Shown: positions 17,825-58,925 of the stretch, piece by piece
Layout: each line of letters starts with the position of its first letter
Numbering within the stretch: position 1 is the stretch's first letter
DNA from: a phage
Sequence record: PV730300.1
Strand: one strand, 5' to 3'
Length of the DNA: 64,000 bases
Notes under the pieces: model-generated
Database searches by the model: none
Seen by the model: the letters and a program-made list of their open reading frames with translations, nothing else
What the model was told of the DNA's origin: nothing
Translations under genes and position numbers: made by a program

Positions 17825-17837
17825 ATCTCCTCCTATA

Positions 17838-17855
17838 AAGGGGCAGAAGCCCCTT
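17838..17855 (-). other. stem-loop between DNA polymerase and downstream gene (possible attenuator or processing site)
   Basis: AAGGGGC-agaa-GCCCCTT hairpin; no clear U tract on either strand. Confidence 0.3.
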
Positions 17856-17872
17856 ATAAAACAATGAGTTAA

Positions 17873-20470
17873 CTAGTGACAGGACGCCCAGGAATTACCC
17901 ACATCATACCCAGCAGTAAGCTGAACATTAAGATTGTAAAATTCTCCAGCCTTAGTAACAGCTAAAGCAGCAAGTTCACCTGCCCGACTATAAGCTGTAA
18001 ACCATCCACCTTTGGGAGATTCATGAATGTTAGCCCAAATTTGCCCTGTCTCTTTTTCCTTATTATGCTTCCATTCTTCGACTTTAGCAAGGCATTCTTT
18101 ATCAATTTTCTTTTGTTCTTCAGGATCGTCTACTTTCTTCCAACCTAATGATTCAGGTGAAAACCATTTAAATTCTACAAGGTTACGAGAAACTTCAAGC
18201 TGGGCTTCATCGTGATATGCAATCATTTGTTGCACGAAATCTTTATTCTTCCAGTCATCTTTAAAGAAGTCAACACTTAATCCTTCTTCTTCGATCATGT
18301 CGTCATAAATAACCATTGCACGTTTAGCACAGATAACCCCACCACTTTGGAACAGAGAGTTAAGAATCGCGTGAGCAGAACGAGTAGGAACCTTACGACC
18401 GTCAATACCCAAAACATATTGTTTACCAGTCTTAACCCAGAAATCGTTTAAACGTTCTTTAAGACGCGCCAATGGGAATGCAGCTTCCCAGAAAGCATCG
18501 AACACCAATTGACCTGTAAACTTATCGCTACCAATTGTTTTAGCAACCTTGTCGGCTTGTGCACCATAGGTAATACCATACTTAACAGATTTAGCAGGAC
18601 TACGTTCAAATTTACGTCCAATAGTTTCAGTGATACGTTTTGCCATCATTGTGTGAACATCGTTAGGTTTCTCTAACAACAGAGCGTTACAATATTCGTG
18701 TGGCTCCGGCTCGTACCGCCAACAGTAGTGTGATTCAATTTTTGCTTCCAAAGAGTCGAAGTCGTAGCCGATCTGGAAGTATTTAGGAACCTCCACACCA
18801 AACAAGTTACGCATCTCCCATCCAAACAAAGATGTGACACGAGGAATATTAGCTACAGATCTATGCTTCATACGAGAGGTTGCAGCATCACATGTAGCGG
18901 CTGGGGTAGGAATACGACCATCCGCCCTTACTGCGGCTAAGAAACCTTTATCGTATTCTTGATCTTCCTCATCTTCTTCCCAATCAGCACCACCACCTAA
19001 AATAGAATTCCTACGATGCTTATACGTTAAGTATTCTACAATCTGTGTAGCATAAGGGAATTTCTCACCCAAAGCTTGCAGGTTAGGACAGATTTCTTTT
19101 TCCTGACCTTTGGTAAAGCATGGGTTAGTCAATACTTTAAGACCGCGACCTTTACCTTTTGCTATACGCTCTTGAATCTTCCTCTCCAAGGTTTCCGGTG
19201 TGCACTCCAGATGATCACAACGATCCTGACAAAAATTAGAAGATAGAGTTTGCTCAACGTAAGCTCGAATACCTTTCTGAAGTTCTTCCTCGCTCTTTTT
19301 AATCTTGGTGCCAGATTTAAGAGTCAAGTCTTTATCTTTATATTCAGACGGTACCCAACCTAATCCTACAAGCCAGTTTTTAATATGGGTAGTATCGTTC
19401 AATGTTGCAGGTATGTTAGGATCACACAAAGGCTCATCTGCTGCAACTGGCAGTTTCCACTCTTTCCCCAACATCACTAACCACCAATCTCCATCCCTCT
19501 CTTCCAAATGACCATCATGTTTCTTAGCAAAATTGATCATATGGTTAGTTGGCTCTAAGTTCTTTTTAATTTGCAACTTAGGTGGAATAAAAGCCTTAAG
19601 ATAACCTTTTGTTGCTGGTTTAGGTGGCAAAATAGGCTCAACGAGTAAACGAAGACGCTCCATTTCTGCATCCAAAAAAGCAAGGTTCTCTTCTGCTTGC
19701 TTCATGTTAAAAGCAAACCCACGGTGTTCCTGGCGTGTAATAATGTCTGCTACACGTTGTTCAAGTTCAAATGGACCTTCCCATTTATCATAATCGCCCC
19801 ATTCTTCCATAAGGTAATTATATACGCTCGTATTGGCTTTGTTGTCATAGATACAGTAATAAAGCATATCCGCAGCAAAAGTCTTAAATCGATCTTCTTC
19901 TGGAATCTCTTTACGGAAATCTATTTTTACATCACCACCTGCCTTTCGAGAAAGTGCTGCCAAACTATGTCCTGATTTGCCCTCAATCTTTCGATCTGGG
20001 TTTAACACTTTACTCAAAATCAAGGAGTCAATAAGTTTTACCTTATTTTTGCCCCACGTGTTATATTTAACACTGTAATCTAAGCCATAAAACAGTTTTG
20101 TAGCCAACCAGTCGTAGTTGATACCGTTGTGAGCCACAGCCATTTCAACCAGATATTCAGGCTTATCTTTAAAATAACCTTCATGATTAATAAAGTCTGG
20201 GAAATCTTTTAGTTGAAAATGTGTGTAATCTTGCGCCACATATTCTTTAAGAACATATGTGTATTTACCATCTGACTCTTCATAAGGACGCCCATCAAAG
20301 ATGTATTTAGGGCCATCGTGGAAAGCTACTATTTCTCCTGTTTCATGGTTCTCTAAGACAATACAGTGCATTTGAAATGTGTCTTTGAGACGATAAGGAC
20401 TAGCTAAATAATCGATAGTGTCATTATTCAACAATCCGTTTGCTTCAATATCCCATGTAAACTTACTCAC
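17873..20470 (-). CDS. family-A DNA polymerase with 3'-5' exonuclease domain (865 aa)
   Basis: N-terminal WDIEANGL exo motif; GIDGRKVPTRSAHAILNSLFQSGGVICAKRAM and the C-terminal ...NSWASCH tail align by eye with T7 gp5-type polymerases. Confidence 0.9.
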   Translation of the reverse strand: MSKFTWDIEANGLLNNDTIDYLASPYRLKDTFQMHCIVLENHETGEIVAFHDGPKYIFDGRPYEESDGKYTYVLKEYVAQDYTHFQLKDFPDFINHEGYFKDKPEYLVEMAVAHNGINYDWLATKLFYGLDYSVKYNTWGKNKVKLIDSLILSKVLNPDRKIEGKSGHSLAALSRKAGGDVKIDFRKEIPEEDRFKTFAADMLYYCIYDNKANTSVYNYLMEEWGDYDKWEGPFELEQRVADIITRQEHRGFAFNMKQAEENLAFLDAEMERLRLLVEPILPPKPATKGYLKAFIPPKLQIKKNLEPTNHMINFAKKHDGHLEERDGDWWLVMLGKEWKLPVAADEPLCDPNIPATLNDTTHIKNWLVGLGWVPSEYKDKDLTLKSGTKIKKSEEELQKGIRAYVEQTLSSNFCQDRCDHLECTPETLERKIQERIAKGKGRGLKVLTNPCFTKGQEKEICPNLQALGEKFPYATQIVEYLTYKHRRNSILGGGADWEEDEEDQEYDKGFLAAVRADGRIPTPAATCDAATSRMKHRSVANIPRVTSLFGWEMRNLFGVEVPKYFQIGYDFDSLEAKIESHYCWRYEPEPHEYCNALLLEKPNDVHTMMAKRITETIGRKFERSPAKSVKYGITYGAQADKVAKTIGSDKFTGQLVFDAFWEAAFPLARLKERLNDFWVKTGKQYVLGIDGRKVPTRSAHAILNSLFQSGGVICAKRAMVIYDDMIEEEGLSVDFFKDDWKNKDFVQQMIAYHDEAQLEVSRNLVEFKWFSPESLGWKKVDDPEEQKKIDKECLAKVEEWKHNKEKETGQIWANIHESPKGGWFTAYSRAGELAALAVTKAGEFYNLNVQLTAGYDVGNSWASCH

Positions 20471-39511: not shown

Positions 39512-41334
39512 AAATGTTTCTCCCTTTGCAAAACTTCCTGCATTTTACCTTTGTTATAAGGCCGTGAATTAGGGGCAGAAAGATACCCTGATACACGTCT
39601 AACTACAGAAATAGTTTCTTCTTCATGGTTGCCACAATCAGGACACTCAAACCCTTTAGCCGTTGCCTTAAATTCCCCATGAAAACCACACTTAAAGCAT
39701 TGATCCACGGGCTGATTAATACCAAAATAGTGAATATGTTCATAAGCGTAGTCTACTAAAGTCTCCAAAGCTTCTAAGTTATTCTTTAAGTTTGGTGTTT
39801 CGACATAACTTATGTTACCACCATTACTAATCTGTGCAAAACCTGCTTCATAATCCCATTTTTCAAAAGGATTTGTTACCAACCATACAGGTTGATGAAA
39901 AGAGTTAGTAAGATAGTCTCTTTCTACCAAACCTGGGTATTTTTCATTTAAAGCTGTTGCAAACTTATAGCACAAAGATTCTGCTGGAGTTCCATAGAGA
40001 CTAAACGCCAAATTAGATCGTTCTTTAAACACAGCACACACATCTTTCATATGTTGCAGAATGTTTTTACCAAGTTCCTTTTTATCTTTTTCTTCTGGAT
40101 AAAGGATTTCCAAAGCTTCGGCAAGACCTACATAACCAATACTAATAGAAGCATAACCACCTTCAAACAAAACACCAATTTCATCGTTGGCATTTAAACG
40201 CGCTAAAGCCCCTTCCATGAAAAGAATAGGGTTTTCAGATGCTTTGGTATGTCTGATACGGTTTACACGTAGCATGTGAGCATCGTAGGCTATCTCCATA
40301 TGTTTATTAAGAAGATCGGTGAAAGATTCTCCTTTACTTCTCGCTTCCGCAGCGATCAGAGGTAAGTTGATAGAAACTACTCCAAGGTTGAATCGTCCAT
40401 CGTATTTTTCTCCTTGTTCGGTGGCATAGTGAGAAAGGAAGCTTCTGCAACCCATGCTTGTAACCTTGCCATCTGAAGATCCTGTGACTTCCATGTTCAG
40501 TGGAACAGAGATGAAATCAGGGTAAATCCTTTCTGCACAACATTCCATTGCCAGTTGCTTGAGATCGTAATTCGGGTCACCCGGTTTCATATTCACCCCG
40601 TCTTTCAGGAAGAACACGACTTTCGGGAATACTGGGGTCACGCGATCCTTCCCAAGACCTCCTGTATGAACCTTTAAATAGTTCTTAGTGATCATTCGTC
40701 CAAAAACAGAGGTGTCCAAGCCGAGGCTGATAGTGATGAATGGTGATTGACCATTCACACTCATCAAGGTATTAACTTGATACAGAAGTGTTTGCATTGC
40801 GTCATAAACAAGACTGTCCACCACTTCCATCGCCCTTTTCTCTAAGTCCTCTGTATTAGGACCACGATAATTTTTGCTGAGATTATTAAAGATTTTGTTG
40901 TAGCTTTTTTCTACGTATTGTTTTAATCCCTCGTCAATATGCGCACAAGTCTGTCCACCATACTGGCTCGATGCTACAGCTTGGATGATTTGAGTTAGCA
41001 CTGTGGTAGCTACTCCAATAGATTTTGGTTTTTCTATCTGTGCAGCACCGATCTTAAAACCATTTTCTAACATATCTTGGTAATTAACAAGACAACAGTT
41101 TGTAAGAGGAGAGAGCAGATAATCCAAGTCGTGAATATGTCCAAAACCTTCTGTATGCCATTCTGACAAGTTTTTTGGCAGTATCTGTGTCATTGCCATA
41201 TGTTTGCTTAAAATCCCCGCCAAGAGATCCCTGTGTGTGTTAACGAGGTGGGAAGGTTTGTTTGCATTCTCTCTAGTGTATGTTTCTGAAGTGCGATCTA
41301 AAAAAGAAAAAACATCTTGGTACAAATCTTTCAT
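39508..41334 (-). CDS. nrdD: anaerobic ribonucleoside-triphosphate reductase (class III)
   Basis: C-terminal zinc ribbon (CFKCGFHGEF...CPDCGNHEEE) followed by the glycyl-radical motif RRVSGYL. Confidence 0.85.
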   Translation of the reverse strand: MKDLYQDVFSFLDRTSETYTRENANKPSHLVNTHRDLLAGILSKHMAMTQILPKNLSEWHTEGFGHIHDLDYLLSPLTNCCLVNYQDMLENGFKIGAAQIEKPKSIGVATTVLTQIIQAVASSQYGGQTCAHIDEGLKQYVEKSYNKIFNNLSKNYRGPNTEDLEKRAMEVVDSLVYDAMQTLLYQVNTLMSVNGQSPFITISLGLDTSVFGRMITKNYLKVHTGGLGKDRVTPVFPKVVFFLKDGVNMKPGDPNYDLKQLAMECCAERIYPDFISVPLNMEVTGSSDGKVTSMGCRSFLSHYATEQGEKYDGRFNLGVVSINLPLIAAEARSKGESFTDLLNKHMEIAYDAHMLRVNRIRHTKASENPILFMEGALARLNANDEIGVLFEGGYASISIGYVGLAEALEILYPEEKDKKELGKNILQHMKDVCAVFKERSNLAFSLYGTPAESLCYKFATALNEKYPGLVERDYLTNSFHQPVWLVTNPFEKWDYEAGFAQISNGGNISYVETPNLKNNLEALETLVDYAYEHIHYFGINQPVDQCFKCGFHGEFKATAKGFECPDCGNHEEETISVVRRVSGYLSAPNSRPYNKGKMQEVLQREKHF

Positions 41335-41434: not shown

Positions 41435-42784
41435 TTATCGTTTGGAGAGGAATTGTCTTCCCATGATCTTACCGTTCTTTACAGCGGTCCCATCGTGTCC
41501 ATTATAATCCCAAGTTCCATCAATGTTACGCAAGAAGCTATCACGAACAGTGTAGGCTTTACCGTTCTCTACTTTACTTTCTTCAACAATGATTGCCATA
41601 ACAAGCTTATTTTCAATTTCGGTAGTAACCGATTCTTTAATACCCTCTGTAACTTCACGATCATATTGGATATAAACTCGCTCCTCGGTCACTTGCACGT
41701 CTACCACATTTTTAAATGTGTATGTCTGCTGTGTAGTGTAAAGGACACGAACAACACTCTTCTTACCTACTGGCGGCTTCTTACGAGGCTTACGGTAACG
41801 TGGAGACGGGTTAAGTTTAATATAGCCTACAATGTCTGATCCATCTCCAGAGTGGCTCCAATAAAGTGTCTCTGCCAACAAACCTTTTCCTTGGTCCCCA
41901 TTTCGAAAAAGAACATCAACAGGACCATCACAAGGGCGTTTACCTCCGATGTGGGCTTGGTATTTTGCTGTTCTTGGGAGAACAAAATATTCTTCAATCT
42001 GCCATTCACTATCGTATTTCTCCCATTCAAAGTGGTTGGCTTTGCATACTTCTAAAACACCATTTTTGTAACGGACTTGAACAAAGTCCTCACAAGGTTG
42101 AATACCTGTATTAGGAATATAGGTAGGCTCTGTGTCTTCTGGTTCAAAAGTCTTTTTTTGTTGTTCCACATCTTCCACTTTTCTTACATGCTTAGTATAA
42201 AACATATCTTTAAACTCCTGTGCTTCAACCTCAACTGCAAATTCATGTTCTCTGACCGCCGGAGGCACAAGACTTCCACACTCAAGATGTAGAGCATCCA
42301 GACCTGCCATTTTATCGTAAAAGATAACTTTTCGATACTTCTTACCGTCTTCTGGAATAGCAGGGTCTACTCGTTTAAGACGGGAAGCATCGCTTTTAGT
42401 CCAAAAACTCTTCCCTGTTGTATTATTGAAAGTAGTAATCATTTCTCCAATTTCTTCTTCAGAAAGGTTACTAGTGTCTGTGTAAACATCTTCAATTTTT
42501 AGCATTTTAGTTTTCTTAAAAATTAAATCTAGCATTGCATCTCCTGTAAAACGTAGTTCATTATCTCCTACTGTCGGCTCTCCATTAAATTCATCGGTCC
42601 CGACTGTGTGACAGATGTATGGAAAATTTGTGCAACCGTGTAAAAGAGCATATTGTCCTGTAAGTTTAGGATCTGTCTCTTTAGTCCAACCATATGCAAT
42701 CTCAATAGCTTTGCAAAGCCTATCGAACAAGCCCCGATTGTTTGCCGCTGTTACCAAATCTTGCTTATGTGCATATACATTCAT
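41435..42784 (-). CDS. hypothetical protein (449 aa)
   Basis: Large ORF; no motif recognised by eye. Confidence 0.5.
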   Translation of the reverse strand: MNVYAHKQDLVTAANNRGLFDRLCKAIEIAYGWTKETDPKLTGQYALLHGCTNFPYICHTVGTDEFNGEPTVGDNELRFTGDAMLDLIFKKTKMLKIEDVYTDTSNLSEEEIGEMITTFNNTTGKSFWTKSDASRLKRVDPAIPEDGKKYRKVIFYDKMAGLDALHLECGSLVPPAVREHEFAVEVEAQEFKDMFYTKHVRKVEDVEQQKKTFEPEDTEPTYIPNTGIQPCEDFVQVRYKNGVLEVCKANHFEWEKYDSEWQIEEYFVLPRTAKYQAHIGGKRPCDGPVDVLFRNGDQGKGLLAETLYWSHSGDGSDIVGYIKLNPSPRYRKPRKKPPVGKKSVVRVLYTTQQTYTFKNVVDVQVTEERVYIQYDREVTEGIKESVTTEIENKLVMAIIVEESKVENGKAYTVRDSFLRNIDGTWDYNGHDGTAVKNGKIMGRQFLSKR

Positions 42785-49404: not shown

Positions 49405-49724
49405 TTTACTTCCCCTTTGTAATCGGACACTATACCAGGTCTTACTTTTGCCTTAAGATGTTTCAACTCTGCCATAGGAGTTGCCACTTGTATAAGGTTA
49501 ATAATTTCAACCTCGTAGATAGTATACTCATAACCCGCATACTTCCCAATGGAATGCAGGTATTTGATAGCATGTTCAGGTGAATCTGCTTCAACATACC
49601 CCAAATCTTTTGTAGTGCGGCCTTCACAGTCGCCTTCTGTAGTTACGTGATAAAGTGTCATAAAACCTCCTCGTAGTAAGGCAAAGCTTTGATTAACTGT
49701 TCTGAAGTGCCATTCTCTGTCCAT
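49401..49724 (-). CDS. hypothetical protein (start uncertain)
   Basis: ORF; possible internal start at MTLYHV. Confidence 0.4.
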   Translation of the reverse strand: MDREWHFRTVNQSFALLRGGFMTLYHVTTEGDCEGRTTKDLGYVEADSPEHAIKYLHSIGKYAGYEYTIYEVEIINLIQVATPMAELKHLKAKVRPGIVSDYKGEVK

Positions 49725-54015: not shown

Positions 54016-55023
54016 TTGTTAGATATGCCAGTAAAGAAGAGTATTGAAACATATATGGAAGAATGTAAGCCGATAGCTGAGGCTAAAGGGATTACCATTC
54101 TCGGCACGTATGGAGAAGATAAAGGTGTGCATACGAAGATGATCAATCGTTGTGAGCATGGTCATGAATGGAATACTACAACGTTTCACAGTTTTAAAGA
54201 TGGTCGAGGTTGTCCTAAGTGCGCCTACAGAGAACGTTCGAAAAAGAGAAGCAAAGCTATCACTATTCCAGACCAGCAACACATACAAGATTTTATGAAG
54301 GTAGGTAAATTTAAGGAAGGCACTATTTTCACCAATACAGGGGAACGTAAAGGGTGTGATATAGTATGGATGGTTGAATGTCCTGTTTGCTCTCATGATG
54401 AATATGTGGAAGCTGGGGTGTGTGATGGTAAATTCTATGCTACCGGAAGTCATCTTAAACGTGGGTGTCTCCCTTGCCGCTGTTCTACGAGTTACAAATA
54501 CACAGAGGATCAGACCACCTATAGAACAAGAAAGGAAGTAGAAAGGAGAGGATATATATGGGTAGGATGGATCGGTAAACCTTCAACAATGGGTAAGTTT
54601 AAATATGGATGTAAGGAGCACGGGGAACAGATAGGGCGTGCAGATGGTTTGCTACATAAGGGGAGTGGGTGTCCGCAGTGCGGGGGCCAAAACCAACAAC
54701 AATGTTACATTAATCATATTTATGATGAAGATGGTATTCTTTGTGCACTGAAGTTTGGTATTGCCAATAGTAGTGATCGCCGTATCAAAGAACAGAATAG
54801 CCGCAATGTGTTTACTATGAGACAAGTTCAAGTGTGGCAGTTCCCCACTGTGAAGCAGTGCAAAAATTCAGAAAAGTATTGCAAAAAGGTGTTAGACACA
54901 GAAGCAGTGAGCAAATATGCTATGCCAGACGGCTACACAGAAACAGTGGAGCTATCTTGTTTGGCCTCAATACAAAACATTTATAAACTTTATGGTGGAA
55001 CATTACAGGAGGAAACATGTTAG
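54016..55023 (+). CDS. cysteine-rich multi-zinc-finger protein (335 aa)
   Basis: Several CxxC pairs (GCPKCAY, CPVCSHDE, CLPCRC, GCPQCGG, CKEHG). Confidence 0.45.
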   Translation: MLDMPVKKSIETYMEECKPIAEAKGITILGTYGEDKGVHTKMINRCEHGHEWNTTTFHSFKDGRGCPKCAYRERSKKRSKAITIPDQQHIQDFMKVGKFKEGTIFTNTGERKGCDIVWMVECPVCSHDEYVEAGVCDGKFYATGSHLKRGCLPCRCSTSYKYTEDQTTYRTRKEVERRGYIWVGWIGKPSTMGKFKYGCKEHGEQIGRADGLLHKGSGCPQCGGQNQQQCYINHIYDEDGILCALKFGIANSSDRRIKEQNSRNVFTMRQVQVWQFPTVKQCKNSEKYCKKVLDTEAVSKYAMPDGYTETVELSCLASIQNIYKLYGGTLQEETC

Positions 55024-55382
55024 TTGACGTTCAAATTATGCGCAACGAAAGAATGGACTTCTTTGAAGCAGTAGAGAAACATCTGATCAGATGGGACTAT
55101 GAATTTGTTCCTGCTGGATGTGGACCAGTAGAGCATTTAGCGGAAGACGACGATGTATACATGATCATTCGTCAAGTGTACCAGACAGACCAGTGTGAAG
55201 AAACTCCCGAACTGATTTTGTTTGAGTGTAAAGATCTTGCAAAATATTTTGACTATGGCGGAAAAGAGGGTCATAATCTCTCCAGATACAATAAACGTCT
55301 ACTTATCTTAGACTACATGCGGAACAACAAACACAAACTCATCGACGCAGACGCAGTTTATGGCTACTGGTGGATGGACTAA
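55017..55382 (+). CDS. hypothetical protein (121 aa)
   Basis: ORF coupled to upstream gene. Confidence 0.45.
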   Translation: MLVDVQIMRNERMDFFEAVEKHLIRWDYEFVPAGCGPVEHLAEDDDVYMIIRQVYQTDQCEETPELILFECKDLAKYFDYGGKEGHNLSRYNKRLLILDYMRNNKHKLIDADAVYGYWWMD

Positions 55383-55395
55383 CAAAGGAGAAACT

Positions 55396-55584
55396 ATGGC
55401 ACGTTTAGCAGATAACCCTGTATTCTACCCCGTTCTTGATCTTTATGATGAATTGACATATGTTGTGGAGCGGTATAACTACAATGAAGATCTTTTGGAG
55501 ACAAACCTTAAAGTGGTCCTGATGAAAGCCTATCAGAAAGGGCAACGTGAAATTTTGGAGAGTATGAAAAATGCGAATAACTGA
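55396..55584 (+). CDS. hypothetical protein (62 aa, start at internal ATG)
   Basis: AAGGAGAAA RBS before ATG at 55396. Confidence 0.4.
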   Translation: MARLADNPVFYPVLDLYDELTYVVERYNYNEDLLETNLKVVLMKAYQKGQREILESMKNANN

Positions 55585-56113
55585 TGATTATGTATTCTTC
55601 TTTTCACATAAAGATGTGTTTAGTAATTGGTATATTGCACCCTTTACAGAAACCGAACCAGGTTACAATCAAACATTTAATTGTGTCGAACAATATATGA
55701 TGTGGCGTAAAGCTTTGCTTTTTAATGACCACAACACTGCACAGGCTATTCTGACTCATAGCTTGATACGGAAAGATGAGAAGATCCAAGCTTATTACAA
55801 ACGTATGGGTAGGGCAGTGTCGGATTTTGATAACAACGTATGGGAAGAGAACCGTGAGCGTATTGTTATGCGAGGTTTATGCTTGAAATATGTACAGAAT
55901 CCAGATTTGTATGCAGACTTACACCTTTACCAATATAAAACGTTTGTTGAAGCAAGCCCCTACGATAAGGTTTACGGAATTGGAATGGGGATGTATGAAC
56001 CAGGGGTGCTAAACCCTGCCACCTGGAAAGGGCAGAATCTTTTAGGCAAATATCATAATAAACTGATCGAAATACTTTTCCCAGACAAAATACCGCAAAG
56101 ACGATATTTGTGA
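55571..56113 (+). CDS. NADAR (YbiA-like) domain protein (180 aa)
   Basis: FFFSHKDVFSNWY, CVEQYMMWRKA, NVWEE and FVEASPYDKVYGIGMG match the conserved NADAR blocks. Confidence 0.6.
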   Translation: MRITDDYVFFFSHKDVFSNWYIAPFTETEPGYNQTFNCVEQYMMWRKALLFNDHNTAQAILTHSLIRKDEKIQAYYKRMGRAVSDFDNNVWEENRERIVMRGLCLKYVQNPDLYADLHLYQYKTFVEASPYDKVYGIGMGMYEPGVLNPATWKGQNLLGKYHNKLIEILFPDKIPQRRYL

Positions 56114-56167
56114 TATTTTAACTTTTTTCATTTTTAGAACAAAGGTGTCACTTTGTAGCACAGAAAT

Positions 56168-56207
56168 AAGGCTCCTACAGCACCGTAGAGAGCCTGTTAT
56201 TTTGTCT
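56168..56207 (+). terminator. rho-independent terminator closing the plus-strand block
   Basis: AGGCTC...GAGCCT extended hairpin with internal CTAC/GTAG pairing, followed by GTTATTTTGTCTT. Confidence 0.5.
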
Positions 56208-56355
56208 TATACAAACACTTATCTTTTTCAGTTTGCATCACTAGAATTAGATCTAGGTGGGTTCCTGAAGGTTTACCAATAAGATTAAAGGTTATCTCAA
56301 ATTACCACTACCTGTTATCTCAAAAAATCCCTCAAATTATTTAAACTTTTTAAGA

Positions 56356-56543
56356 ATTTACAAAAGTGAAAGTTGAAAACCAAAATTTAAAGTTTAGGAA
56401 AATTATCTTAAAATGTCAGATACAAAACAAAACTCAAAAGTCAAGGAAAATTTTAAAAATTTTGCGCGCCCACAGTATTTAAAGTTTTTTTGCTTTTACA
56501 AAAATGAAAGTACAAAAGCAAAATTTAAAGTTTACAAAAATTT
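56356..56543. repeat. two copies of a ~45-bp AT-rich direct repeat (about 56356-56405 and 56493-56543)
   Basis: acaaaagtgaaagttgaaaaccaaaatttaaagtttaggaaaatta vs acaaaaatgaaagtacaaaagcaaaatttaaagtttacaaaaattta. Confidence 0.6.
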
Positions 56544-56554
56544 ATGCAGATGGG

Positions 56555-56664
56555 AATGAGAAGAGTTCTCATATGGAAATGCAAATGATAATGATTCGCA
56601 TTTAGGTTTATAAATGAGATTGATTCTTATTTGATAAGGTAAATGATAAGCATTCTCATTTAGA
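56555..56664. repeat. four iteron-like imperfect palindromes, about 27-bp periodicity
   Basis: gaatgagaagagttctcatatgg / aaatgataatgattcgcatttagg / aaatgagattgattcttatttga / aaatgataagcattctcatttaga. Confidence 0.6.
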
Positions 56665-56895
56665 GAATGACGCGCAGGGGTGGTGTTTGTCTCGCGCTCC
56701 CGTGTCCCCTCGCCATGTAATAAGAATAACAGATCCAGCCAGGAAAGCAAGCGATTATTTTTATCTTTACATTTCTTTACAAATATATAGCGCCCAGCCT
56801 CCCGGCGATCGACCTTCCAACCGGTGCCCCTGGTATGTTAGCCCCGCCTTTACGCCGTGGGGGTGGCGCTTCCTCTTCTGTATGTAAAACAGTAT

Positions 56896-56935
56896 AAGCC
56901 CGATCCCTGGGCTTGTCAAGATTATTTTTTGTTTT
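56896..56935. terminator. bidirectional hairpin terminator in GC-rich block
   Basis: AAGCCC-gatccctg-GGGCTT hairpin; T-run downstream on plus strand, TGTTTT downstream on minus strand after the stop of 56922-57188. Confidence 0.4.
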
Positions 56936-57188
56936 CTTGCCAGGATAAGACACCTAACCAAAAATGCATATCGCCCCGCGCCCCTGGTGGGATCTTGCTT
57001 TCCCCGCCGCCACTGCAAGCCCATAAATAACCATCAGCGAACGGATCAAAGTTTTCTATCTCTTCCACCTTATGATCGCCCAGGTTGAGAACGGTTTCAA
57101 CCTTTAAGCCCGTTGCGCTTGCTACCTGGTGCACCGTGCCGCCTTGCCAGCCCAATGAGTGCATAAGGTGTAATGTAGTATTTGTCAT
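56922..57188 (-). CDS. small hypothetical protein (88 aa), divergent from the early array
   Basis: Coherent GC-rich codon usage; upstream TTGCTG-17-TATCAT, then GCGCC...GGCGC hairpin and AAAGGG RBS, a diverged version of the early cassette. Confidence 0.4.
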   Translation of the reverse strand: MTNTTLHLMHSLGWQGGTVHQVASATGLKVETVLNLGDHKVEEIENFDPFADGYLWACSGGGESKIPPGARGDMHFWLGVLSWQENKK

Positions 57189-57296
57189 GGTATCGCCCTT
57201 TCTTTGTTGTGCGCCCTGGTTGGCGCGGTAGAAAGATGATAGCCGTTTCCTTTATATACAGCAAGCAAAAAAGAAAATAAAAAAGATTAAAAAATG

Positions 57297-57325
57297 GTTG
57301 ACGTTCCCCAGGGGGTAGCGTATTA
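57297..57325 (+). promoter_or_regulatory. sigma70-like promoter with about 135-nt leader for first early-array gene
   Basis: TTGACG, 17-nt spacer containing CCCCAGGGGG, TATTAT. Confidence 0.4.
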
Positions 57326-57461
57326 TTCATCTTGTCGAGGGGGGCGAGGCACAACGACAATAAACAAAAGGCGGGCGCGATGCAGGACGGGCAAAGGTGA
57401 GGATCTCCATAATCCACCGTCCACCAACAAAAAACATCATTCATAACCTGGAATTAAGATC

Positions 57462-57659
57462 ATGGCAACATTGCACATAGTAGCGAAAGCAGGACAAATC
57501 AGCGTAATTGTAAACGGTTTTACTGAATTCAGTCATCCCCAGGATGATCATGAAACGGTTTTATCTTTTATTGATTCCTTGTTAGAAATGGGAGTCATTA
57601 CAGAAGATCAGCACGCTACAAAATGCAAGCGCGTTAATCAAATTGCAGAAATAGAATAA
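57462..57659 (+). CDS. early small protein (65 aa)
   Basis: ORF ends 6 nt before the next cassette -35. Confidence 0.5.
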   Translation: MATLHIVAKAGQISVIVNGFTEFSHPQDDHETVLSFIDSLLEMGVITEDQHATKCKRVNQIAEIE

Positions 57660-57665
57660 AAAGTA

Positions 57666-57746
57666 TTGACAACGTTTTTTAATCTGATAAGATGTATCAC
57701 ATAGGGCGGGAAATGGTTTCCCGCCCACAATAGAAGAGAAATCATC
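57666..57746 (+). promoter_or_regulatory. early promoter-hairpin-RBS cassette 1
   Basis: TTGACA-16-TAAGAT, GTATCACAT, GGGCGGGAAA-tgg-TTTCCCGCCC hairpin, AGAAGAGAAATC, ATG. Confidence 0.65.
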
Positions 57747-57899
57747 ATGGCATCATATAGCGCAACAATGATCGTAGCTGGCATCACTGGTAAACCTATG
57801 AGCGGTGGCGGATCTTTCGCTAATATCAATATCGACGGACGTTTATCCCTGGACGCAGCGATCGCCATTGCACGGGATACATTCAAAAAAAGAATGTAA
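57747..57899 (+). CDS. early small protein (50 aa as written; probably continues to 58020 in the +1 frame)
   Basis: ATG defined by cassette 1; ends just after an A7 run (57885-57891); +1 frame stays open to 58020, immediately before the next cassette. Confidence 0.45.
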   Translation: MASYSATMIVAGITGKPMSGGGSFANINIDGRLSLDAAIAIARDTFKKRM

Positions 57900-58023
57900 A
57901 TTCAACAAACAAAATTATCTCGGTTTTGCTATTGAAAAAACCGCGCGTTTTGTGGATTATAAAAGCCCGAAAATGGTTGATACTACACTAAAAGCGCAAG
58001 ATGTAGCGTTTTTGCTTTAAGGC

Positions 58024-58096
58024 TTGACGCTAACGAATAATTTGTTAATATGTTACATAACGCGGGAATAGTTCCCGCTGTTTGTAAGGTGATACA
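58024..58096 (+). promoter_or_regulatory. early promoter-hairpin-RBS cassette 2 (diverged)
   Basis: TTGACG-16-TAATAT, GTTACATAA, GCGGGAA-tag-TTCCCGC hairpin, ATG. Confidence 0.55.
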
Positions 58097-58355: not shown

Positions 58356-58925
58356 ATGGGCCGCGAATATGTGATCCAAACCTGGGTAAAACATGAAGCA
58401 GATGATCCGCGCATCATTCCCGATCATCTTGTCGATGAATCCACGGGCTATAGCGGGGAGCAAATAGGCAACAGATTAGCACGCAGTAACGGCAACGTAA
58501 AAGCGCGCTATGTGCGCCCTGGTTGGCTGGCGAATGGTACCGCTGATTTATCCAGTGCGGAAGATACGAGCGACGGCGCGAAAGATAATCCCTTGTACAA
58601 AATTGATCCGGCTTTTCGTGTCCTGGATGAATATCCCAGCAAGATAGCGGCGCTCGATCAGGCCCTGGAAAGTAAGCGCATCACCTGGACCGCTTACAAC
58701 ATGGCAAAAAACGTACTTGATGGTAAGCTGATCCAGGCTGAAAGGAAATTAGCCAAAATTGCAGCCATAGCCCAGGAGGAAGACGAGGAAACAACGGAAG
58801 AGGAAGAGTACGAAGAGATCCCGCCGTTGTTGTGTGTTGATGCTTTTCCTGATTATCAACCGACAGAGGAAGAAAAAAGGATCGCCCTAGAAAACTTTGA
58901 AAATATTATTGACAACATTTTTTAA
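58356..58925 (+). CDS. early protein (189 aa), acidic C-terminal region
   Basis: ATG 2 nt after upstream stop with GGTGGG RBS; C-terminal codons (IIDNIF) are the -35 and spacer of the next cassette. Confidence 0.5.
   Translation: MGREYVIQTWVKHEADDPRIIPDHLVDESTGYSGEQIGNRLARSNGNVKARYVRPGWLANGTADLSSAEDTSDGAKDNPLYKIDPAFRVLDEYPSKIAALDQALESKRITWTAYNMAKNVLDGKLIQAERKLAKIAAIAQEEDEETTEEEEYEEIPPLLCVDAFPDYQPTEEEKRIALENFENIIDNIF

What the first reader, a model, noticed from the sequence alone, without database searches (positions are those of the whole stretch)
57747..58020. A7 homopolymer splits an early gene: programmed slippage, pseudogene or sequencing error
The cassette-defined ORF starting at 57747 stops at 57897-57899, right after a run of seven A (57885-57891). 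The +1 frame is open from before the A-run to 58018-58020, which is 3 nt before the next cassette -35, exactly where other array genes end. Loss of one A would fuse the two frames into a roughly 90-aa protein. The geometry points to one gene interrupted at a slippery homopolymer.
Basis: seen in the sequence. Interest (0 to 1): 0.5.

Follow-up and report, generated by a model that had tools for sequence, protein, structure and literature searches.

The report
Frameshifted copy of conserved phage gene
One extra A in a run of A's breaks a small, widely conserved early phage gene in this genome. It is an ordinary frameshift mutation or a sequencing error, not a programmed recoding signal.

Summary
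An A7 run at 57885-57891 ends the ORF 57747-57899 after 50 codons, and the +1 frame stays open to TAA 58018-58020, 3 nt before the next promoter.

Removing one A gives a 90-aa protein 100% identical to gp257 of Escherichia phage EF1-1, the nearest relative. It matches phrog_8099 end to end.

- **Relatives are in frame.** Every related record listed in the isolate-phage collection (two lists of 60 rows, some records in both), plus six related metagenome/viral contigs and one MAG contig, encodes the protein in one frame. The site reads A6, AAGAAA or AAATCC.
- **Both halves are coding.** Each shows third-codon-position variation in the fused frame.
- **One domain.** The predicted fold is a single alpha/beta domain (pLDDT 88), and the break falls inside its helix.

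A conserved programmed frameshift is therefore excluded. A7 is also below the run length at which E. coli RNA polymerase slips detectably.

What remains is a recent A6->A7 insertion. I lean towards a real mutation over an assembly error (about 0.55 to 0.37). It is the only frame-breaking indel against EF1-1 in roughly 56 kb. Independent frameshift alleles of this gene, including A5 at the same run, occur in other public assemblies.

The protein's function is unknown. Interest is low.

The parts
57666..57693 (+). sigma70-like promoter of the gene (TTGACA-16 nt-TAAGAT, with TG before the -10)
   Evidence: Consensus scan, 10/12 matches. phAPEC8 annotates a 'putative host dependent promoter' at the equivalent place.
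57704..57726 (+). GC-rich stem-loop of the promoter cassette, in the 5' leader (GGGCGGGAAA-TGG-TTTCCCGCCC; 10 bp stem)
   Evidence: RNA fold -18.8 kcal/mol, z = -5.0, 0 of 200 shuffles fold as well. In EF1-1 the arms differ at paired positions but the hairpin is kept.
57747..57899 (+). 5' part of the broken gene: codons 1-48 of the conserved protein, then Arg-Met-stop read out of frame (50-aa product)
   Evidence: Residues 1-48 are identical to EF1-1 gp257.
57885..57891 (+). A7 homopolymer at the Lys47-Lys48 codons, carrying the 1-nt insertion. Relatives have A6, AAGAAA, AAATCC, or A5 in another frameshift allele.
   Evidence: Alignments. It is the only A7 in the window.
57879..57897 (+). Short inverted repeat ACATTC / GAATGT that places the A run in a hairpin loop
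   Evidence: Fold. It is weak (z = -1.7), so it is not evidence for a recoding stimulator.
57892..58020 (+). 3' part of the broken gene: codons 49-90 plus TAA, now in the +1 frame
   Evidence: Identical to EF1-1 gp257 residues 49-90. In relatives the variable sites by codon position are 15/10/33 in this frame. The invariant residues E49, Y57, G59, F60, T65, F68, P74 and L89 lie here.
57935..57940 (+). Second A6 run in the same gene (GAAAAAAC), intact here. It is the site of an A5 frameshift allele in other assemblies.
   Evidence: L016 and L017 (P0021) carry A5 here.
58024..58078 (+). Next promoter + stem-loop cassette (TTGACG-16-TAATAT, then GCGGGAA-TAG-TTCCCGC), which bounds the gene on the 3' side

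Best explanation
The interval 57747-58020 is one conserved small early gene. It belongs to family phrog_8099, encodes 90 aa and is the orthologue of EF1-1 gp257, phAPEC8 gp259 and phi92 gp226. In this genome it carries a non-programmed 1-nt insertion (A6->A7) at the Lys47-Lys48 codons.

Shown: the ancestral state of the window/EF1-1 pair is TTC AAA AAA GAA. More distant relatives have TTT AAG AAA GAA, so a synonymous AAG->AAA change produced an uninterrupted A6.

Inferred: slipped-strand mispairing during phage DNA replication then added one A.

The predicted consequence is a 50-aa peptide (48 native residues plus Arg-Met). It ends inside the single long helix and lacks strands beta4 and beta5 of a one-domain alpha/beta fold, so it is a null or near-null allele of a dispensable accessory gene. 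At most a trace of full-length protein would come from error-level +1 ribosomal slippage of tRNA-Lys on AAA_AAA_A before the rare AGA codon (inference from general knowledge, not tested). Rescue by host RNA polymerase slippage is expected to be negligible at A7. The event is very recent, because no other difference from EF1-1 has accumulated in the gene.
For: - **Identity of the gene.** Deleting one A gives 100% identity to EF1-1 gp257. The fused protein matches phrog_8099 over positions 1-90 of 90, E = 1.8e-47.
- **Relatives are intact.** By tblastn, 177 of 179 phage records hold a place covering at least 80% of the protein. Every record listed (two lists of 60 rows, some records in both) is a single in-frame 258-270-nt piece. 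The same holds for 2 IMG/VR contigs, 4 metagenome contigs and 1 MAG contig.
- **Both halves are coding.** Variable sites by codon position in the fused frame are 11/11/33 for codons 1-48 and 15/10/33 for codons 49-90. Invariant residues lie on both sides of the break.
- **One domain.** The AlphaFold model has pLDDT 87.8, with helix 35-52 spanning the break and strands 60-65 and 75-77 after it.
- **The assembly is otherwise clean.** Over roughly 56 kb aligned to EF1-1 at 97-98.5% identity, every other indel is intergenic (28298, 30450, 45713, 56827), a multiple of 3 (3421, 15765, 50077), or compensated inside a divergent patch. This is the only frame-breaking one (with the annotation).
- **Real frameshift alleles of this gene circulate.** A5 at the same run occurs in 8 contigs, including a 145-kb genome, from two ENA samples and one Logan run, with strain-level differences between them. 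A5 at the second run occurs in 3 contigs. A non-homopolymer 1-nt deletion occurs in L018.
- **Long runs are avoided here.** Three A/T runs of 7 or more are observed where about 37 are expected, so this A7 is an anomaly rather than a maintained feature.
Against: - No reads are available, so a consensus homopolymer miscall cannot be excluded. A lone error at one of about 76 A6/T6 runs is plausible.
- No listed isolate genome in the phage collection has a broken copy, so a broken copy in a propagated phage is unusual.
- The window's own 50-aa product is not on record in any other assembly, so nothing independent confirms the A7 allele.
- The gene is otherwise identical to EF1-1, so there is no post-inactivation decay to prove it is a pseudogene.
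Confidence: 0.55

Rival explanations
1. Sequencing or assembly artefact. The phage really has A6 and an intact gene, as EF1-1 does. The seventh A is a homopolymer miscall in the consensus.
For: The only difference from EF1-1 inside the gene is the length of a homopolymer. Homopolymer length is the classic error mode of several sequencing platforms (general knowledge). All listed isolate genomes have the intact gene. The A7 allele has no independent record.
Against: An error-prone assembly should show more such events. The window holds 76 A6/T6 and 223 A5/T5 runs, and most of the aligned region is annotated CDS in EF1-1. Even so, no other indel against EF1-1 breaks a frame. Length changes at this run and at the second A run of the same gene recur across several samples and studies, which argues that they are real.
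Confidence: 0.37
2. Programmed recoding. The gene is meant to be decoded through the A7 run, either by +1 ribosomal frameshifting or by transcriptional deletion of one A. This would give a short and a long product in a set ratio.
For: tRNA-Lys can re-pair in the +1 frame on AAA_AAA_A, and the next 0-frame codon is the rare AGA (sequence; general knowledge of hungry-codon +1 shifting). A +1 shift there would recreate the wild-type protein exactly.
Against: The two-ORF organisation is absent from every homologue examined. The run itself is not conserved: AAGAAA or AAATCC in many relatives. No significant stimulatory structure is present; the local fold has z = -1.7 and the run sits in the loop. 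E. coli RNAP showed no detectable rescue on A runs shorter than 8, and no deletion-type rescue on any poly(A) run tested (PMC6260861). Selection against slippage in bacteria is typically evident only at about 9 nt (PMC1088944).
Confidence: 0.03
3. Two genuine separate small genes: a 50-aa ORF, and an independent ORF in the other frame (for example the GTG-started 71-aa ORF 57805-58020).
For: Both ORFs appear in a mechanical ORF list.
Against: The first 27 residues of the 71-aa ORF are an out-of-frame read of the conserved N-terminal half. No homologue is organised this way. After the run, the downstream frame has no plausible start codon with a ribosome-binding site. Conservation is that of one continuous 90-aa protein with one fold.
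Confidence: 0.01

Closest known systems
Intact orthologues: EF1-1 gp257 (XPO96415), phAPEC8_00259 (AFU62830), phi92 gp226; family phrog_8099
   Same: Same genomic slot between the same promoter/stem-loop cassettes. 100% (EF1-1) to about 90% protein identity once one A is removed.
Other frameshift alleles of the same gene in public assemblies (P0028: A5 at the same run; P0021: A5 at the second run; P0029/P0030: upstream 1-nt deletion)
   Same: Single-base indels, mostly at the two A6 runs, that truncate the same protein.
   Different: Those are deletions in phi92-like relatives. The window's is an insertion in an EF1-1-like genome and is a separate event.
'Savior'/compensated homopolymer indels, e.g. 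herpes simplex thymidine kinase G7->G8 with low-level frameshifting (as reviewed in PMC5009743)
   Same: A one-base change in a 6-7-nt homopolymer knocks out a viral accessory gene. The run could in principle allow trace read-through by slippage.
   Different: Nothing here shows a selective benefit of the knockout or any compensating frameshift.
Programmed transcriptional slippage sites (Thermus dnaX A9, Shigella mxiE, IS elements with A9; PMC1088944)
   Same: A run of A's in a coding region at the junction of two frames.
   Different: Those runs are 8-9 nt or longer, and both the run and the two-frame layout are conserved among homologues. Here the run is 7 nt and neither feature is conserved.
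PeSL cassettes (promoter-early stem-loops) of T4-type phages (PMC2839356, PMC4122927)
   Same: The gene sits in an array of small ORFs, each preceded by a strong sigma70-like promoter plus a GGG...CCC stem-loop.
   Different: This is a different phage group (phAPEC8-like). The recombination and terminator roles of the cassettes were not tested here. This is context only and not part of the frameshift.

Membership tests
phrog_8099 / EF1-1 gp257 protein family | Full-length similarity to the family profile | tested here: met
   With one A removed: E = 1.8e-47, residues 1-90 on profile positions 1-90 of 90. 100% identity to EF1-1 gp257.
phrog_8099 / EF1-1 gp257 protein family | Same genomic position as the orthologues | tested here: met
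   Same flanking genes and cassettes in EF1-1, phAPEC8 and ZCKP1.
phrog_8099 / EF1-1 gp257 protein family | Uninterrupted reading frame | tested here: not met
   A7 causes a stop after codon 50. The locus is a disrupted member.
Programmed ribosomal frameshift site | Two-frame organisation conserved among homologues | tested here: not met
   All listed homologues are single-frame.
Programmed ribosomal frameshift site | Conserved slippery motif | tested here: not met
   The site reads AAGAAA, AAAAAA or AAATCC in relatives.
Programmed ribosomal frameshift site | Stimulatory element next to the shift site | tested here: inconclusive
   Only a weak 6-7 bp hairpin with the run in its loop, z = -1.7. 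A rare AGA codon follows, which is a sequence observation only.
Programmed ribosomal frameshift site | Trans-frame product made at a defined ratio | not testable with these tools
   Needs proteomics or a reporter assay.
Programmed transcriptional slippage site | A/T run long enough for the transcribing polymerase (at least 8 A for E. coli RNAP; typically 9) | tested here: not met
   The run is 7 nt. Thresholds come from PMC6260861 and PMC1088944. The promoter is sigma70-type, so host RNAP is assumed.
Programmed transcriptional slippage site | Run conserved among homologues with the same ORF layout | tested here: not met
Homopolymer contingency (phase-variable) locus | Tract length differs among related strains, switching the gene on and off | tested here: met
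   A5 (off), A6 (on) and A7 (off) occur at the same site in different genomes.
Homopolymer contingency (phase-variable) locus | Tract long enough for high-frequency reversible switching (usually at least 8-9 nt; general knowledge) | tested here: not met
   The baseline tract is 6 nt and is interrupted (AAGAAA) in many relatives.
Homopolymer contingency (phase-variable) locus | Mixed tract lengths within one population | not testable with these tools
   Needs reads or plaque-level sequencing.

The most novel reading that the evidence does not exclude
The break is adaptive rather than accidental. The small early protein would be a liability in some hosts, for example as the trigger of an abortive-infection or other defence system. 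Its two A6 runs would then act as soft spots that repeatedly yield knock-out escape alleles (A7 here; A5 at either run elsewhere). These could revert, or be slightly compensated by slippage, in the manner of a 'savior indel'. The only support is recurrence: at least four independent frameshift alleles in a 273-nt gene, three of them at the A runs, and one spread over several samples. There was no usable control for the background rate of such alleles in neighbouring genes.
Probability: 0.1. Interest if true: 0.45.

Novelty: already known. Interest (0 to 1): 0.13.

Why it matters
- **Annotation.** The locus should be labelled as a frameshifted copy of a conserved hypothetical early gene, or corrected if reads show A6. 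It should not be labelled as two ORFs or as a recoding site.
- **What it says about the gene.** If the allele is real, phrog_8099 is dispensable for this phage. That agrees with other broken alleles in public assemblies and marks the gene as an accessory, host-interaction type gene worth a knockout test.
- **What it does not do.** It opens no new mechanism.

Tried and rejected
- **IUPAC pattern across the run in IMG/VR.** 0 hits. This is explained by flank differences in the two IMG/VR relatives found later.
- **Exact look-up of the window's 50-aa product in the contig collection.** Not on record, so the source and any second A7 record were not found.
- **E. coli complete genomes and plasmids.** No match.
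- **Genome contigs pattern scan.** One MAG contig, in frame with AAGAAA.
- **Control for the background rate of frameshift alleles.** I used the neighbouring 85-aa gene, which returned only 2 clusters and was uninformative.
- **Known RNAs.** Rfam over the whole window gave 0 matches at gathering score, and no tRNAs were found in 55000-58000.
- **Rejected readings.** Two independent genes, and a stimulatory RNA structure for recoding.

Full report
**What the window is.** The region 57400-58400 matches 128 phage records. The listed ones are phAPEC8-like myoviruses; phAPEC8 and ZCKP1 are classified as Stephanstirmvirinae, Phapecoctavirus. The nearest record is Escherichia phage EF1-1 (PQ571289), at 99.4% over that kilobase. 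Over the larger aligned blocks covering roughly 56 kb of the window, identity is 97.2-99.0%. The window's own genome is not in the phage, plasmid or E. coli collections, nor in the contig index.

**Checking the observation.**
- The ATG at 57747 opens an ORF that ends at TAA 57897-57899 and encodes 50 aa.
- The run AAAAAAA occupies 57885-57891.
- The +1 frame is open across the run to TAA 58018-58020.
- A sigma70-like promoter (TTGACA-16-TAAGAT) lies at 57666-57693. It is followed by a strong stem-loop at 57704-57726 (-18.8 kcal/mol, z = -5.0).
- The next such cassette starts at 58024, 3 nt after the second stop.

**What it is.** Deleting one A gives a 273-nt ORF. Its 90-aa product is identical to EF1-1 gp257 and matches PHROG family phrog_8099 over all 90 profile positions (E = 1.8e-47).

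In the alignment with EF1-1, phAPEC8 and ZCKP1, the extra A is the only length difference inside the gene. EF1-1 has TTC AAA AAA GAA, while phAPEC8 and ZCKP1 have TTT AAG AAA GAA.

Several lines of evidence show that the two halves are one gene:
- **Isolate genomes.** A tblastn search with the fused protein finds 179 phage records, and 177 hold a place covering at least 80% of the query. Every row listed, 60 spread evenly down the ranking and the 60 best (some records appear in both), is one uninterrupted in-frame piece. These include jumbo phages such as PBECO4 and CBB, and podophages such as pSb-1 and EcP1, at 39-60% identity.
- **Other collections.** Two IMG/VR contigs, four metagenome contigs and one MAG contig are also in frame.
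- **Codon pattern.** Among eight intact sequences, variable sites by codon position are 11/11/33 for codons 1-48 and 15/10/33 for codons 49-90 in the fused frame. In the most distant of them the site reads TTT AAA TCC GAA, with no run at all.
- **Conserved residues.** A 20-member protein alignment has invariant residues on both sides of the break.
- **Fold.** AlphaFold gives one compact alpha/beta domain (pLDDT 87.8, pTM 0.75). Its elements are strands 3-11, 17-19 and 26-29, helix 35-52, and strands 60-65 and 75-77. The frameshift at residue 48/49 cuts the helix and removes the last two strands.

The two ORFs are two pieces of one gene, and the 50-aa product should not fold.

**Programmed slippage is rejected.**
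- A recoding site would require the split layout and the slippery motif to be conserved. Neither is.
- The local RNA fold is weak. It is a 6-7 bp stem, ACAUUC/GAAUGU, with the run in its loop (z = -1.7).
- The gene has a sigma70-type promoter, so host RNA polymerase is assumed to transcribe it.
- In a systematic reporter study, E. coli RNAP gave no detectable rescue on runs shorter than 7 T or 8 A. It gave no deletion-type rescue on any poly(A) run tested (PMC6260861).
- Genome-wide selection against slippage-prone runs is usually evident at about 9 nt (PMC1088944).
- A +1 slip of tRNA-Lys on AAA_AAA_A before the rare AGA codon would recreate the native protein. I can offer this only as an error-level possibility from general knowledge; it was not tested.

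**Real mutation or sequencing error?** I listed every indel between the window and EF1-1 and placed each against ORFs and the EF1-1 annotation.

| Class of indel | Window positions |
|---|---|
| Isolated 1-nt indels, all intergenic | 28298, 30450, 45713, 56827 |
| Multiples of three, in coding sequence | 3421, 15765, 50077 |
| Clusters inside divergent patches, net 0 or +9 | 40660-40678, 49715-49723, 54108-54828 |
| Cluster in the spacer where EF1-1 carries an HNH gene that the window lacks | 17856-17874 |
| Frame-breaking | 57885 only (the A7) |

The A7 is the only frame-breaking indel, although the window contains 76 A6/T6 and 223 A5/T5 runs. The assembly is therefore not littered with homopolymer errors.

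Independent frameshift alleles of this same gene exist elsewhere:
- **P0028** has A5 at the very same run. It occurs in 8 contigs, including a 145-kb genome, from two ENA samples and a Logan run. Those copies differ at other positions.
- **P0021** has A5 at the second run (GAAAAAAC, window 57935-57940), in 3 contigs.
- **P0029** (and, judging by its protein sequence, P0030) has a 1-nt deletion outside any run.

These alleles make a real loss-of-function allele plausible. Against that, no listed isolate genome has a broken copy, the A7 allele has no second record, and the gene shows no further decay. I put a real recent mutation at about 0.55, an assembly miscall at about 0.37, and the rest at about 0.05-0.08.

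**A supporting oddity.** A/T runs in this window follow first-order Markov expectation at lengths 5 and 6 (223 and 76 observed, 218 and 74 expected). At length 7 and above they collapse: 3 observed against about 37 expected, with a minimum of 22 in 200 simulations. Runs longer than 6 appear to be selected against in this genome. That fits an A7 which is a fresh lesion or an error rather than a maintained signal.

**Function.** It is unknown.
- Pfam and PADLOC gave no hit.
- NCBIfam and the PDB sequence profile gave only chance-level hits.
- BFVD returned only uncharacterised phage proteins.
- A literature search on the family and locus names found no papers.

The gene sits in an array of small ORFs, each with its own strong promoter plus a GC stem-loop. 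This resembles the PeSL cassettes of T4-type phages (PMC2839356) and suggests a non-essential early accessory gene.

**Verdict.** This is an ordinary single-base frameshift in a conserved hypothetical gene. Interest is low. The one mildly interesting residue is that the gene seems to be broken repeatedly at its A runs in nature, which could reflect counter-selection in some hosts. That idea is untested, because the control with a neighbouring gene was uninformative.

Noticed in passing
whole window; runs of 7 or more at 42153-42159 (T7), 56485-56491 (T7), 57885-57891 (A7): A/T homopolymers stop sharply at length 6. Counts are 223 runs of 5, 76 of 6 and only 3 of 7 or more. A first-order Markov model expects 218, 74 and about 37, with a minimum of 22 in 200 simulations. 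This suggests strong avoidance of runs of 7 or more in this phage.
   Followed up: partly
window 42153-42159, - strand: The T7 run is, on the coding (-) strand, an in-frame CAA AAA AAG. That is the A_AAA_AAG heptamer in the phase of the E. coli dnaX -1 slippery site (named in the PMC1851650 abstract). It lies inside the gene that maps to the EF1-1 'ribonucleotide reductase' gp221. The run length is the same in EF1-1, since no indel was reported there.
   Followed up: no
window 17836-17852: The window lacks about 590 bp that EF1-1 has here. The missing stretch coincides with the EF1-1 HNH endonuclease gene gp183 (104955-105545), next to the DNA polymerase gene. This is a presence/absence polymorphism of a homing-type endonuclease.
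   Followed up: partly
window 56100-57450: About 1.3 kb has no convincing gene, no tRNA and no Rfam match. It holds a 138-nt-spaced direct repeat (56333-56404 / 56471-56542, 82% identical). It also holds three 29-nt-spaced units of the form AATGAnA...TCnCATTT at 56555-56663, which look like iterons and could mark an origin or a regulatory region.
   Followed up: partly
window 57666-57726, 58024-58078 and further cassettes at 58909, 59248, 59700, 59967, 60299, 60618, 61184, 61621, 62088, 63340, 63817: There is an array of strong sigma70-like promoters (TTGACA-16/17-TAnnnT). Most were not checked for a stem-loop; the two flanking this gene, which were folded, are each followed by a GC-rich stem-loop. 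Each promoter precedes a small ORF, resembling the PeSL cassettes of T4-type phages. The stem at 57704-57726 differs from the EF1-1 copy at paired positions (GAAA/TTTC against CGGA/TCCA) while staying a hairpin.
   Followed up: partly
window 57879-57897: The A run lies in the loop of a short perfect inverted repeat, ACATTC-A7-GAATGT. In relatives with ACATTT the closing pair would be a G-U wobble. The fold is not significant as RNA structure (z = -1.7). As a DNA quasi-palindrome it might contribute to the indel hot spot.
   Followed up: partly
L013-L018 (public contigs related to the window gene): At least three other independent frameshift alleles of the same 273-nt gene occur in public assemblies: A5 at the first run, A5 at the second run, and a 1-nt deletion at GTGGCACGG. 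The A5 allele at the first run is shared by strains that differ at several other sites.
   Followed up: yes
EF1-1 annotation (L001, L005, L006): Several small early ORFs of EF1-1 carry implausible product names, such as 'putative capsid protein' for the 65-aa gp256, 'Gag polyprotein' and 'DnaJ-like protein R260'. These look like annotation-transfer artefacts and should not be propagated to the window.
   Followed up: no
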